DNA of 64,000 nt. It comes from Escherichia coli (lineage in GTDB: Bacteria; Pseudomonadota; Gammaproteobacteria; Enterobacterales; Enterobacteriaceae). The translations under genes and the position numbers were made by a program. Below the pieces are notes generated by a model. That model was not told the origin of the DNA. It saw nothing but the letters and a program-made list of their open reading frames with translations, and did not search any database. Below, in pieces: positions 2,356 to 49,423 of this stretch; the first letter of the stretch is position 1; every line of letters starts with the position of its first letter. The DNA lies in assembly GCF_041248615.1 (NCBI RefSeq), contig NZ_CP158426.1. One strand, 5' to 3'.

Positions 2356-3759
2356 ATGTCTGACCATAATCCACTGACATTAAGACTGAATCTGCGGGAA
2401 AAAATCGCCTATGGTATGGGCGACGTCGGTTCGAATTTAATGCTCTGCATCGGTACTCTGTATCTCCTCAAATTTTATACCGATGAATTAGGGATGCCTG
2501 CTTACTATGGCGGGATTATCTTTCTGGTGGCGAAGTTTTTTACCGCGTTTACCGATATGCTCACCGGATTTTTACTCGACTCGCGGAAAAATATTGGGCC
2601 TAAAGGCAAATTTCGTCCCTTTATTTTATATGCAGCGGTTCCGGCGGCGTTAATTGCAACGCTCCAGTTTATCGCCACCACCTTTAGTTTGCCGGTTAAA
2701 ACGACGATTGCCACCGCACTGTTTATGATGTTTGGACTTTCATACAGTCTGATGAACTGCTCGTATGGTGCGATGATCCCGGCAATTACCAAAAACCCGA
2801 ATGAGCGCGCGCAGCTCGCGGCTTACCGCCAGGGTGGTGCAACCATAGGGCTATTGATTTGTACCGTGGCGTTTATTCCGTTGCAGTCGCTTTTTTCTGA
2901 CTCCACCGTCGGTTATGCCTGCGCGGCACTGATGTTCTCCATTGGTGGCTTTATTTTTATGATGCTGTGCTACAGAGGCGTCAAAGAGCATTATGTGGAC
3001 ACGACGCCAACCGGACATAAAGCCAGTATTCTCAAATCTTTTTGCGCGATATTTCGTAATCCGCCATTGCTGGTTTTGTGCATTGCTAACCTGTGTACCC
3101 TGGCGGCATTTAATATCAAACTGGCGATTCAGGTCTATTACACCCAATATGTGCTGAATGATATTAATTTATTGTCGTGGATGGGATTTTTCAGTATGGG
3201 ATGTATCCTCGTCGGCGTATTACTGGTGCCATTAACTGTAAAATGTTTTGGTAAAAAACAGGTTTATTTAGCTGGCATGGTGCTATGGGCGGTTGGTGAT
3301 ATCCTGAATTATTTCTGGGGAAGTAACTCTTTCACTTTCGTCATGTTCTCTTGTGTCGCCTTTTTTGGCACGGCCTTTGTGAACAGCCTGAACTGGGCGC
3401 TGGTACCAGATACCGTAGATTACGGTGAATGGAAAACCGGTATTCGTGCCGAAGGTTCTGTTTATACCGGTTATACCTTCTTTCGTAAAATTTCTGCCGC
3501 ACTTGCTGGCTTCTTGCCAGGCATTATGCTGACGCAAATCGGTTATGTTCCCAACATCGCGCAAAGTGATGCGACATTACAGGGTTTGCGTCAGCTCATT
3601 TTTATCTGGCCTTGTGCGCTGGCAATTATTGCTGCATTGACGATGGGATTCTTTTACACACTCAATGAAAAACGGTTTGCATTGATTATTGAGGAAATCA
3701 ACCAACGCAAAAATAAAGAGATGGCGACAGAAGAAAAAACAGCTTCCGTAACGTTATAA
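2356..3759 (+). CDS. yihO: GPH-family transporter (sulfoquinovose importer family)
   Basis: ORF track; ATG at 2356 preceded by AAGGAG (2345-2350); protein starts MSDHNPLTLRL. Confidence 0.88.
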   Translation: MSDHNPLTLRLNLREKIAYGMGDVGSNLMLCIGTLYLLKFYTDELGMPAYYGGIIFLVAKFFTAFTDMLTGFLLDSRKNIGPKGKFRPFILYAAVPAALIATLQFIATTFSLPVKTTIATALFMMFGLSYSLMNCSYGAMIPAITKNPNERAQLAAYRQGGATIGLLICTVAFIPLQSLFSDSTVGYACAALMFSIGGFIFMMLCYRGVKEHYVDTTPTGHKASILKSFCAIFRNPPLLVLCIANLCTLAAFNIKLAIQVYYTQYVLNDINLLSWMGFFSMGCILVGVLLVPLTVKCFGKKQVYLAGMVLWAVGDILNYFWGSNSFTFVMFSCVAFFGTAFVNSLNWALVPDTVDYGEWKTGIRAEGSVYTGYTFFRKISAALAGFLPGIMLTQIGYVPNIAQSDATLQGLRQLIFIWPCALAIIAALTMGFFYTLNEKRFALIIEEINQRKNKEMATEEKTASVTL

Positions 3760-27067: not shown

Positions 27068-27095
27068 GCAAGAGTAGGCTGGATAAGACGCGCCA
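27068..27095. repeat. left half of a REP unit interrupted by the IS
   Basis: flank gtaggctggataagacgcgcca joins with 28528-28545 (gccagcgtcgcatccggc) to form one REP once the IS and one copy of GCCA are removed. Confidence 0.7.
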
Positions 27096-27619
27096 TGAAC
27101 TGCACCCCAAATGTTGGACATAATCTGACATCTGAAGGTGCAGTTTATGAAACATTCATTTGAAGTAAAACTTGCCGCTGTAAATCATTACCTGGCTGGT
27201 CAGGCAGGCATCATTTCTACGGCAAAACTCTTTCAACTTTCTCACACCAGCCTCTCACACTGGATTAATCTTTTTCTTCTTCACGGTCCTCGGGCACTGG
27301 ATTGCAGACACAAGCGTAGCTATTCTCCTGAAGATAAACTTTGCGTGGTTCTTTATGCTCTCGGGCATTCTGAGTCTCTACCCCGGGTAGCTGCCCGGTT
27401 TAACATTCCCAGCCACAACACGGTTAAAAACTGGATAAAAGGCTACCGCAAATCTGGTAATGAGGCCTTTATCAGGCGCAGGAAGGAGAAAAGCATGACC
27501 CGTTCTGATGATACCCATGAAAACGAGGCAAACATGACGCCGGAAGAGATGAAGAATGAGCTGCGTTATCTTCGCGCAGAAAATGCATATCTGAAAGCCA
27601 TGCAGGAGCATCTCCTGGA

Positions 27620-28527
<908 letters not shown>

Positions 28528-28545
28528 GCCAGCGTCGCATCCGGC
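28528..28545. repeat. right half of the REP unit interrupted by the IS
   Basis: gccagcgtcgcatccggc; see 27068-27095. Confidence 0.7.
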
Positions 28546-28562: not shown

Positions 28563-28588
28563 AAAAAGGCCATCCGTCAGGATGGCCT
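28563..28588 (-). terminator. rrn operon terminator (T1-like)
   Basis: hairpin ggccatcctgacggatggcc followed by a U-run on the minus strand, just downstream of 5S. Confidence 0.75.
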
Positions 28589-28601
28589 TCTGCTTAATTT
28601 G

Positions 28602-28721
28602 ATGCCTGGCAGTTCCCTACTCTCGCATGGGGAGACCCCACACTACCATCGGCGCTACGGCGTTTCACTTCTGAGTTCGGCATGGGGTCAGGTGGGACCA
28701 CCGCGCTAAGGCCGCCAGGCA
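28602..28721 (-). rRNA. rrfA: 5S ribosomal RNA
   Basis: reverse complement reads TGCCTGGCGGCC...GGGAACTGCCAGGCAT, 120 nt. Confidence 0.97.
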
Positions 28722-28814
28722 AATTCTGTTTTATCAGACCGCTTCTGCGTTCTGATTTAATCTGTATCAGGCTGAAAATCTTTCTCTCATCCGCCAAAAC
28801 ATCTTCGGCGTTGT

Positions 28815-31729
<2,915 letters not shown>

Positions 31730-47180: not shown

Positions 47181-49423
<2,243 letters not shown>

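What the first reader, a model, noticed from the sequence alone, without database searches (positions are those of the whole stretch)
27617..27630. Programmed -1 frameshift signal A AAA AAG at the orfA/orfB overlap
In the orfA frame the heptamer reads A AAA AAG (27620-27626). The -1 frame is open from here through the DDE domain to 28495, so a fused OrfAB transposase would be made by slippage. The first Met of the orfB frame (27773) is well downstream of the HTH-like segment, which argues that frameshifting rather than independent initiation makes the active enzyme. This suggests the element is intact.
Basis: partly seen in the sequence, partly recalled or inferred. Interest (0 to 1): 0.3.

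Follow-up and report, generated by a model that had tools for sequence, protein, structure and literature searches.

The report
IS1397 transposase frameshift site, confirmed
The A AAA AAG motif is the already-annotated ribosomal frameshift site of an intact copy of the known E. coli insertion sequence IS1397, so the finding is correct but ordinary; the only twist is that this lineage uses a site 27 bases downstream of the one its wider relatives use.

Summary
A AAA AAG sits at 27620-27626 in the orfA frame (GAA AAA AAG). It is the only canonical X XXY YYZ heptamer in the 109-nt orfA/orfB overlap, and the -1 frame is open from 27560 to 28495.

The element is IS1397 (IS3 family, IS150 group), 27096-28527, 1432 bp. 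It has TG...CA inverted repeats and a 4-bp GCCA duplication, and it lies in the centre of a REP palindrome between mobB and the 5S rRNA gene. It is 100% identical to a RefSeq copy at the same locus annotated [quoted passage not shown]. The fused 449-aa protein matches the IS3 transposase model end to end, and D295, D355 and E392 fit the expected DDE motif contexts.

One correction: 27773 is a GTG codon. The first ATG in the orfB frame is at 27893.

One addition: in 55 wider relatives the heptamer follows the OrfA motif ENAYL and is followed by a covarying 11-bp stem. IS1397 and three intermediates carry it 27 nt further downstream, with GGAAAAAAAGCGCC invariant. IS1397's own flanking hairpins are predicted but not supported by comparison.

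Verdict: already known, low interest.

The parts
27096..28527 (+). IS1397 insertion sequence, 1432 bp, complete
   Evidence: 100% identical over 1432 nt to NZ_LT599825.1, annotated IS3-like element IS1397 family transposase. 1711 E. coli records carry a copy covering at least 80% of the element.
27096..27120 (+). Left terminal inverted repeat (TGAACTGCACCCCAAATGTTGGACA)
   Evidence: Inverted repeat I1 and the sequence itself. It starts with TG and matches IRR at 21 of 25 positions by eye.
28503..28527 (+). Right terminal inverted repeat (TGTCCAGGTTTTGGGGTTCAGTTCA), ending in CA
27092..27095 (.). Target-site duplication GCCA, left copy
   Evidence: Read from the sequence. The empty site ...gacgcGCCAgcgtc... 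is contiguous in strain 33F4.
28528..28531 (.). Target-site duplication GCCA, right copy
27147..27668 (+). orfA (173 aa, HTH DNA-binding protein), frame 0
   Evidence: Pfam HTH_28, HTH_Tnp_1, HTH_29 and HTH_23.
27604..27608 (+). Shine-Dalgarno-like AGGAG, 11 nt upstream of the heptamer
   Evidence: [quoted passage not shown] 31 of 55 relatives have the same spacing at their own site. It is absent in L087 and in the rare A..T haplotype.
27603..27617 (+). Small hairpin CAGGAG-cau-CUCCUG ending 2 nt before the heptamer; role unknown
   Evidence: dG -6.6 kcal/mol, z -3.9. The pair 27606-27614 occurs as G-C (644 records), G-U (1037) and A-U (5), with A-C in at most 1. It is not supported by covariation in the clade alignment.
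27620..27626 (+). Slippery heptamer A AAA AAG, the proposed site of -1 tandem tRNA-Lys slippage
   Evidence: GGAAAAAAAGCGCC is invariant in L087, L088 and L089 at 45-56% OrfA identity. The RefSeq CDS junction lies 1 nt after it.
27630..27667 (+). Predicted downstream hairpin (CAGG-AG-CUGGA / UCCGG-AG-CCUG, 16-nt loop); candidate stimulator
   Evidence: dG -12.4 kcal/mol, z -3.4. It passes the published hairpin rule, starting at +4, which is the lower limit. Only the lower CAGG/CCUG stem is kept in relatives and there is no significant covariation.
27641..27647 (+). Second A-run, G AAA AAA in frame; a weaker alternative slip site
27626..28495 (+). orfB reading frame (-1 relative to orfA) from the slip point to the TAA stop; DDE catalytic domain
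   Evidence: Pfam HTH_21, rve, rve_2 and rve_3. D295, D355 and E392 were assigned from the motif contexts WVTD, HSD and AVME.
27094..27149 (+). Fold-back hairpin pairing the left end with the orfA ribosome-binding site and ATG
   Evidence: Inverted repeat I5. dG -28.5 kcal/mol, z -5.5, 0 of 200 shuffles as stable.
27078..27095 (.). Left half of the REP palindrome split by the insertion
   Evidence: Inverted repeat I1 extends beyond the IS ends. The palindrome is intact in the empty site.
28528..28545 (.). Right half of the split REP palindrome

Best explanation
The heptamer is the programmed -1 ribosomal frameshift site of an intact IS1397. Most ribosomes translating orfA (27147-27668) terminate at the TGA and make the 173-aa OrfA. 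A minority slip back one base when the P and A sites hold AAA (27621-23) and AAG (27624-26). Both tRNA-Lys then re-pair on AAA AAA (27620-25), and decoding resumes at GCG (27626). The product is the 449-aa OrfAB transposase, ...LLEKK-A-PGAGEKTKV..., carrying HTH, HTH_21 and DDE domains. Likely but unproven enhancers are the AGGAG 11 nt upstream, which could pair with 16S rRNA as in dnaX, and a hairpin starting 4 nt downstream (27630-27667). What is shown: the sequence, the frames, the identity of the element, its completeness, conservation of the site, and the database annotation. What is inferred: that slippage occurs here, that it is translational, and that the flanking elements stimulate it.
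For: - **Heptamer and frames:** the heptamer is in the orfA frame and is the only canonical motif in the 109-nt overlap.
- **Fusion product:** it is colinear with the IS3 transposase model, 387 bits over profile positions 1-369 of 369. It also has the Pfam HTH and rve domains.
- **Annotation:** The RefSeq protein equals my fusion except residue 161, which places the junction 1 nt after the heptamer.
- **Clade conservation:** L087, L088 and L089 (OrfA 45-56% identical, OrfB 55-67%) keep GGAAAAAAAGCGCC invariant at the same place. They also conserve the -1-frame peptide KKAPG(A/S)GEK(T/A).
- **Frame constraint after the site:** of 6 variable columns between the heptamer and the second A-run, 4 are synonymous in the -1 frame against 1 in frame 0.
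- **Motif efficiency:** A_AAA_AAG is among the three most efficient motifs in E. coli. Together with A_AAA_AAA it makes up 72% of the heptamers in IS1 and IS3 elements (PMC4066793).
- **Flanking elements:** the SD-like sequence and the hairpin both pass that paper's criteria.
- **Intact and multicopy:** inverted repeats, target duplication and empty site are present. The identical genome record holds 12 matching places, and some genomes hold up to 40.
Against: - No frameshift measurement for IS1397 could be read. The primary IS1397 papers (PMC94167, PMC95333, PMC169884) are not held.
- The 55 wider relatives place their heptamer 27 nt upstream, so homology to the broad family does not point to 27620.
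- The downstream hairpin starts only 3 nt after the heptamer, at the lower limit of known spacings. It shows no significant covariation.
- Longer folds are unremarkable, with z of -1.1 and -1.5.
- The SD-like sequence is missing in L087 and in the A..T haplotype.
- A second A-run and transcriptional slippage would give the same or a nearly identical product.
Confidence: 0.85

Rival explanations
1. The shift happens at the second A-run, GAG AAA AAA CGA (G AAA AAA, 27641-27647). The product would be ...EKKRQELEKK-TKVIRSLR..., also 449 aa.
For: - The A-run is roughly conserved in the clade, as G AAA AAA or G AAA AAG.
- A GGAG lies 6 nt before its second base, inside the permitted window.
- The predicted product keeps EK(K)TKVIRSLR, so homology cannot exclude this site.
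Against: - It is not an X XXY YYZ motif, because the P-site tRNA would have to re-pair on GAA.
- The tetramer A_AA.A is the weakest of the shift-prone tetramers. Tetramers reach about one tenth of the best heptamer (PMC4066793).
- No hairpin starts 4-10 nt downstream. The next one begins about 20 nt away.
- Between the two sites, substitutions are mostly synonymous in the -1 frame (4 synonymous, 2 not) and non-synonymous in frame 0 (1 synonymous, 5 not). The peptide APG(A/S)GEK is conserved, so the -1 frame appears to be read already upstream of site 2. The numbers are small.
Confidence: 0.06
2. OrfAB comes from transcriptional slippage. RNA polymerase adds one A in the run of 7 A's (27619-27625), giving an mRNA that encodes the same OrfAB in a single frame.
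For: - The run is 7 A's and is preceded by a small hairpin (27603-27617).
- In the IS3-family element IS1447, a run of nine A's following a stem-loop undergoes transcriptional slippage, and seven A's suffice (PMC6211511).
- The product would be identical, so sequence analysis cannot separate the two routes.
Against: - PMC6211511 quotes earlier work for a usual minimum of about nine A or T for efficient transcriptional realignment, and states that the well-characterised IS3 subgroups use translational -1 frameshifting within an A6G/C/A motif.
- The motif is kept strictly as A AAA AAG in frame. The terminal G favours ribosomal slippage in E. coli but is irrelevant to polymerase slippage.
- The phase of the motif relative to orfA is conserved in all 59 elements examined.
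Confidence: 0.06
3. No recoding occurs. OrfB is made separately from GTG 27773 (or a later start), and the heptamer is a by-product of a Lys-rich coding region.
For: - E-K-K readily encodes A AAA AAG.
- The heptamer is common in the window, 31 copies.
- A 240-aa ORF from GTG 27773 contains the whole rve domain.
Against: - The -1-frame sequence from 27626 to 27772 is conserved as protein in relatives down to about 50% identity.
- The IS3 transposase model aligns across the junction in one stretch.
- The heptamer is invariant at the nucleotide level where flanking codons vary.
- By my recollection of the IS3 literature, not checked here, the active transposase of IS3-family elements is the OrfAB fusion.
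Confidence: 0.03

Closest known systems
IS1397 (E. coli; IS3 family, IS150 group), as annotated in RefSeq
   Same: The window element is 100% identical over all 1432 nt to an annotated copy at the same mobB/rrf locus. It shares the two-frame organisation, the 'programmed frameshift' note, and insertion into the centre of a REP palindrome. REP targeting is the published hallmark of IS1397, as cited in PMC1525189.
   Different: Nothing of substance. The RefSeq conceptual protein has Pro at residue 161, where tandem slippage on the heptamer predicts Ala.
ISKpn1 and other IS150-group relatives (55 distinct elements from Bacillota, Bacteroidota and Gammaproteobacteria)
   Same: They share the orfA/orfB layout and use an A AAA AAG or A AAA AAA heptamer in the overlap. 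OrfB is 49-58% identical. A GGAG lies 11 nt upstream of the heptamer in 31 of the 55.
   Different: Their heptamer directly follows the OrfA motif ENAYL. After a fixed 6-nt spacer comes an 11-bp stem, GCCUUAGUUCA...UGAACUAAGGC. That stem is 95.6% paired, 5 of its 11 pairs show compensatory changes, and 0 of 500 shuffles score as high. IS1397 reads CTG AAA GCC at that position, has its heptamer 27 nt downstream in what is the A-rich loop of the relatives' hairpin, and lacks the conserved stem.
E. coli dnaX and IS911 frameshift signals
   Same: All combine A AAA AAG with an upstream Shine-Dalgarno-like sequence at about 10-11 nt and a downstream RNA structure. The general rules are in PMC4066793. 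The dnaX and IS911 spacings are from my own recollection.
   Different: Those signals have been measured experimentally. Here the stimulators are only predicted, and the hairpin spacer (3 nt) is shorter than usual.
IS150 (the group's type element)
   Same: It belongs to the same group and uses the same A AAA AAG heptamer. High-level ribosomal frameshifting in IS150 was shown by Vogele et al. 1991, cited as reference B58 in PMC4066793.
   Different: By my recollection, IS150 OrfB has its own ATG start. At the corresponding place IS1397 has ACG (T168), so no separate full-length OrfB is expected. This comparison was not tested here.

Membership tests
IS3 family insertion sequence | Two consecutive ORFs with orfB in the -1 frame relative to orfA and overlapping it | tested here: met
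   orfA is 27147-27668. The -1 frame is open 27560-28495, giving a 109-nt overlap.
IS3 family insertion sequence | DDE (rve) transposase domain in OrfB and an HTH domain in OrfA; match to the curated IS3 transposase model | tested here: met
   NF033516 scores 387 bits against a cut-off of 160, covering profile positions 1-369 of 369. Pfam rve, rve_2, HTH_21 and HTH_28 match. D295, D355 and E392 were assigned by motif context.
IS3 family insertion sequence | Imperfect terminal inverted repeats beginning 5'-TG and ending CA-3' | tested here: met
   TGAACTGCACCCC... at 27096 and ...GGGGTTCAGTTCA ending at 28527.
IS3 family insertion sequence | Short (3-4 bp) target-site duplication | tested here: met
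   GCCA lies on both sides. It is single in the uninterrupted site of strain 33F4, and at least 80% of the reconstructed empty site is covered in 5279 genomes.
IS3 family insertion sequence | Copy-out/paste-in transposition through a circular intermediate | not testable with these tools
   This needs an experiment.
IS1397 (the specific element) | Near-identity to the named element over its full length | tested here: met
   100% over 1432 nt to NZ_LT599825.1. 1370 records have a best match of at least 99%. RefSeq names the product IS1397 family transposase. The ISfinder reference sequence itself was not available.
IS1397 (the specific element) | Insertion into the central part of a REP (palindromic unit) | tested here: met
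   The flanks rebuild aggctggataagacgcGCCAgcgtcgcatccggca. A second copy, L084, sits in another REP with the duplication GTCA. The published specificity is cited in PMC1525189.
Programmed -1 ribosomal frameshift signal (bacterial type) | X XXY YYZ slippery heptamer in the upstream frame | tested here: met
   A AAA AAG at 27620-27626, in frame.
Programmed -1 ribosomal frameshift signal (bacterial type) | Downstream hairpin starting 4-10 nt after the motif, closed by a G-C pair plus at least 3 further pairs, with unfolding dG of at least 7.6 kcal/mol (PMC4066793) | tested here: inconclusive
   The rule is met at its lower limit: start +4, 38 nt, -12.4 kcal/mol, 0.33 kcal/mol per nt. Comparison across the 4-member clade gives no significant covariation, with 384 of 500 shuffles as high. 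The MFE partners also differ between members.
Programmed -1 ribosomal frameshift signal (bacterial type) | [quoted passage not shown] | tested here: met
   GGAG at 27605-27608, spacing 12. It is not universal: L087 has AGGCG and the A..T haplotype has AGAAG.
Programmed -1 ribosomal frameshift signal (bacterial type) | Measured production of the trans-frame protein | not testable with these tools
   The IS1397 primary papers are not held.
Canonical IS150-group frameshift cassette (as in ISKpn1 and 54 others) | Heptamer immediately after ENAYL, a 6-nt spacer, then a conserved 11-bp long-range stem | tested here: not met
   IS1397 has CTG AAA GCC at that place and no equivalent stem. It works like these elements but does not share their cassette.

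The most novel reading that the evidence does not exclude
The IS1397 lineage (IS1397, L087, L088, L089) has moved its recoding site 27 nt downstream, into the A-rich loop of the stimulatory hairpin that its relatives in several phyla conserve. In doing so it lost that 11-bp stem. It regained a GGAG at the same 11-nt spacing and acquired new local hairpins. One of these lies just upstream of the heptamer and shows a G-C / G-U / A-U series. It might attenuate frameshifting or promote polymerase slippage. The relocation itself is well supported. Whether the new flanking elements are functional, and whether this changes frameshift efficiency, is open.
Probability: 0.4. Interest if true: 0.3.

Novelty: already known. 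Interest (0 to 1): 0.12.

Why it matters
It matters little beyond correct annotation. The window carries an intact, probably active IS1397 between mobB and an rRNA operon. Its OrfAB transposase depends on a frameshift that public databases already annotate.

Two minor points may be useful. The RefSeq conceptual translation probably has one wrong residue at the junction (Pro instead of Ala at position 161). The IS1397 lineage also shows that a recoding site can migrate within an overlap window while the protein architecture is kept. That is of modest interest to people studying the evolution of frameshift signals.

Tried and rejected
- **Primary IS1397 papers:** PMC94167, PMC95333 and PMC169884 are not held. 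I could not learn whether the frameshift was ever measured.
- **Rfam:** no RNA family matches the frameshift region. Only the 5S and 23S rRNA genes were found.
- **Folds of 111-114 nt around the site:** they are not more stable than shuffles, with z of -1.1 and -1.5. Only the isolated hairpins stand out.
- **Covariation test of IS1397's hairpins in the 4-member clade:** no signal.
- **Compensatory pair 27606/27614:** the four haplotype counts fit an RNA pair. However, they reflect few independent events, and one carrier of the A..T form is a truncated pseudogene. I treat this as suggestive only.
- **Tandem duplication as the origin of the site (27603-29 against 27630-50):** considered because CAGGAGC recurs. 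An ungapped alignment with relatives explains the region equally well by point changes in the ancestral loop. I left it open.
- **Intermediates in plasmids and in GTDB species genomes:** none between 58% and 98% identity were found. They turned up only in the exhaustive protein search.
- **IRL-like match at 48741-48756:** 2 mismatches. Matches at up to 3 mismatches number 0.59 by chance per window, so I dismissed it.

Full report
**Observation.** The sequence at 27618-27629 reads GAA AAA AAG CGC in the frame of orfA (ATG 27147, TGA 27666-27668). The -1 frame is free of stops from 27560 to the TAA at 28493-28495, which gives a 109-nt overlap. A mechanical scan found no other in-frame X XXY YYZ motif in that overlap (rows L001 and WIN).

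The bare heptamer is not rare. The window holds 31 copies on both strands against 16.8 expected. The local protein sequence E-K-K also makes it easy to obtain. Its weight therefore comes from its phase, its position and its conservation, not from its mere presence.

One detail is wrong. 27773 is GTG, not a Met codon, and the first ATG in the orfB frame is at 27893.

**What the element is.** The ends are TGAACTGCACCCC... at 27096 and ...GGGGTTCAGTTCA at 28527, giving 1432 bp. GCCA flanks both ends.

Joining the flanks with one GCCA rebuilds a sequence that is contiguous in other strains. It reads ...aggctggataagacgcGCCAgcgtcgcatccggca... in strain 33F4, between mobB and rrf. At least 80% of this reconstructed site is covered in 5279 genomes. 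The element is thus inserted, with a 4-bp duplication, in the centre of a REP palindrome.

The 1432 bp are 100% identical to a copy in E. coli NRZ14408 at the same mobB/rrf locus. Of 5426 complete E. coli genomes, 1707 carry a copy covering at least 80% of the element, with up to 40 matching places per genome. REP-specific insertion is the published hallmark of IS1397, as cited in PMC1525189.

**The fusion protein.** Slipping at the heptamer gives a 449-aa protein.
- It matches NCBIfam NF033516 (IS3 family transposase) at 387 bits over the whole profile in one stretch.
- It matches Pfam HTH_28, HTH_21, rve and rve_2.
- D295, D355 and E392 lie in the expected motif contexts.

The RefSeq protein is identical to this fusion except at residue 161, where it has Pro and I predict Ala. 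That corresponds to a join one base after the heptamer. It is an annotation convention, not a different site.

**Comparison with relatives.** A scan of one genome per species returned 80 loci with OrfB 49-58% identical, from Bacillota, Bacteroidota and Gammaproteobacteria, including ISKpn1-like copies in Klebsiella. Two plasmid copies from Pantoea ananatis and Citrobacter braakii were added.

In all 55 distinct elements an in-frame A AAA AAG or A AAA AAA lies in the overlap, always directly after the OrfA motif ENAYL. After a fixed 6-nt spacer comes an 11-bp stem, GCCUUAGUUCA...UGAACUAAGGC. On a 50-sequence alignment this stem is 95.6% paired. Five of its 11 pairs show changes on both sides, no shuffle out of 500 reaches the observed covariation, and sliding the partner drops pairing to 20-48%.

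IS1397 does not fit this pattern. At the homologous place it reads CTG AAA GCC. Its heptamer lies 27 nt further downstream, aligned with the A-rich loop of the relatives' hairpin, and the conserved stem is not recognisable.

An exhaustive protein search then found intermediates.

| Locus | OrfA identity to IS1397 | OrfB identity to IS1397 |
|---|---|---|
| L087 | 56% | 66% |
| L088 | 53% | 67% |
| L089 | 45% | 55% |

All three share IS1397's arrangement.
- The 14 nt GGAAAAAAAGCGCC are invariant, although 44% of the columns just upstream vary.
- The heptamer is in the orfA frame in each.
- The -1-frame peptide KKAPG(A/S)GEK(T/A) is conserved.
- Between the heptamer and the second A-run, 4 of 6 variable columns are synonymous in the -1 frame, against 1 of 6 in frame 0. 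The numbers are small but point the right way.

The 27620-type site is therefore a conserved feature of a sub-lineage, not an accident of this copy.

**Stimulatory elements.** I applied the published criteria of Sharma et al. 2014 (PMC4066793).
[quoted passage not shown] This is the same spacing as in 31 of 55 relatives at their own site.
- **Downstream hairpin.** A 38-nt hairpin (27630-27667, -12.4 kcal/mol, z -3.4) starts at +4, the lower limit of the rule.

The support is thin. Across the four clade members only the CAGG/CCUG base of the hairpin persists, and there is no significant covariation. L087 lacks the SD-like sequence. Longer folds are unremarkable. Rfam has no matching family.

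A small hairpin just upstream (27603-27617) is intriguing. The pair 27606-27614 occurs as G-C in 644 records, G-U in 1037 and A-U in 5, with A-C in at most one. These are few independent events, and one carrier of the A-U form is a truncated pseudogene. Upstream hairpins are known to attenuate -1 frameshifting in viral and eukaryotic systems (PMC3639245). Whether that applies here is speculation.

**Mechanism and rivals.** The best explanation is tandem -1 slippage of two tRNA-Lys on A AAA AAG. This motif is among the three most efficient in E. coli, and with A AAA AAA it makes up 72% of the heptamers in IS1 and IS3 elements. The product would be OrfAB with the junction ...LLEKK-A-PGAG.... My confidence is about 0.85.

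There are three rivals.
- **Slippage at G AAA AAA (27641-27647).** This is not a canonical motif and has no suitably placed hairpin. The -1-frame constraint upstream of it argues against it.
- **Transcriptional insertion of an A in the 7-A run.** Seven A's after a stem-loop suffice in IS1447 (PMC6211511). The strict phase and the terminal G argue for the ribosomal route.
- **Separate initiation of OrfB.** This is contradicted by the conserved -1-frame peptide upstream of any start codon and by the colinear match to the transposase model.

None of the rivals changes the conclusion that the element encodes a fused transposase through recoding at or near this site.

**Verdict.** The feature is already known and annotated. 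The lineage-specific relocation of the site is a small evolutionary footnote.

Noticed in passing
window 27626-27629; proteins P0001-P0120: RefSeq's fused IS1397 proteins mostly read ...LLEKK-P-PGAG.... That corresponds to a join that reads base 27627 twice. Tandem slippage on A AAA AAG predicts Ala (GCG) at residue 161. Of the 114 full-length (449-aa) variants retrieved, 109 have Pro and 4 have Ala.
   Followed up: yes
window 27094-27149: The left end (2 flanking bases plus the first 11 nt of IRL) pairs with the orfA ribosome-binding site and ATG. The fold is strong: -28.5 kcal/mol, z -5.5, and 0 of 200 shuffles are as stable. On transcripts reading in from mobB this would hide the orfA start. 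It looks like protection against outside activation.
   Followed up: partly
L087 (about 195-205 and 1603-1625); L088 (about 1940-1950 and 3387-3400): The two closest non-E. coli relatives also sit inside palindromes. L087 lies in a REP-like GTAGCCCGGATAAG...CTTATCCGGGCTAC. L088 lies in the loop of a terminator-like hairpin, AAAACGGCTCC-tgaa-GGAGCCGTTTTTTT, between amtB and tesB-like genes, with an apparent GAA duplication. Targeting of hairpin loops may be a trait of the whole lineage.
   Followed up: partly
window 27606 and 27614; L084; L086: The commonest IS1397 haplotype in E. coli has T at 27614 (1037 records), against C as in this window (644 records). A rare A..T form changes OrfA E154K and removes the SD-like AGGAG. 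One carrier is a truncated copy next to a truncated ssuD in strain ST2747.
   Followed up: partly
(E. coli genome collection): 3485 of 5426 complete E. coli genomes match part of IS1397, but only 1707 have a copy covering at least 80% of it. About 1780 genomes therefore carry only fragments of the element.
   Followed up: no
window 48741-48756 (- strand): TGAACTGATCCCCAAA resembles the IS1397 end with 2 mismatches. Matches at up to 3 mismatches are expected 0.59 times per window by chance, and nothing IS-like was seen in 48600-48900.
   Followed up: partly
whole window: AAAAAAG occurs 31 times on both strands, against 16.8 +/- 4.1 in dinucleotide-preserving shuffles. None of 100 shuffles reached 31.
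   Followed up: no
window 28566-28589 and 28604-29000 (- strand): The IS lies just downstream of an rRNA operon on the - strand. The 5S gene is at 28604-28719 and the 3' end of the 23S gene starts at 28815. A perfect 10-bp hairpin (AAGGCCATCC/GGATGGCCTT) between the 5S gene and the IS looks like the operon terminator.
   Followed up: no
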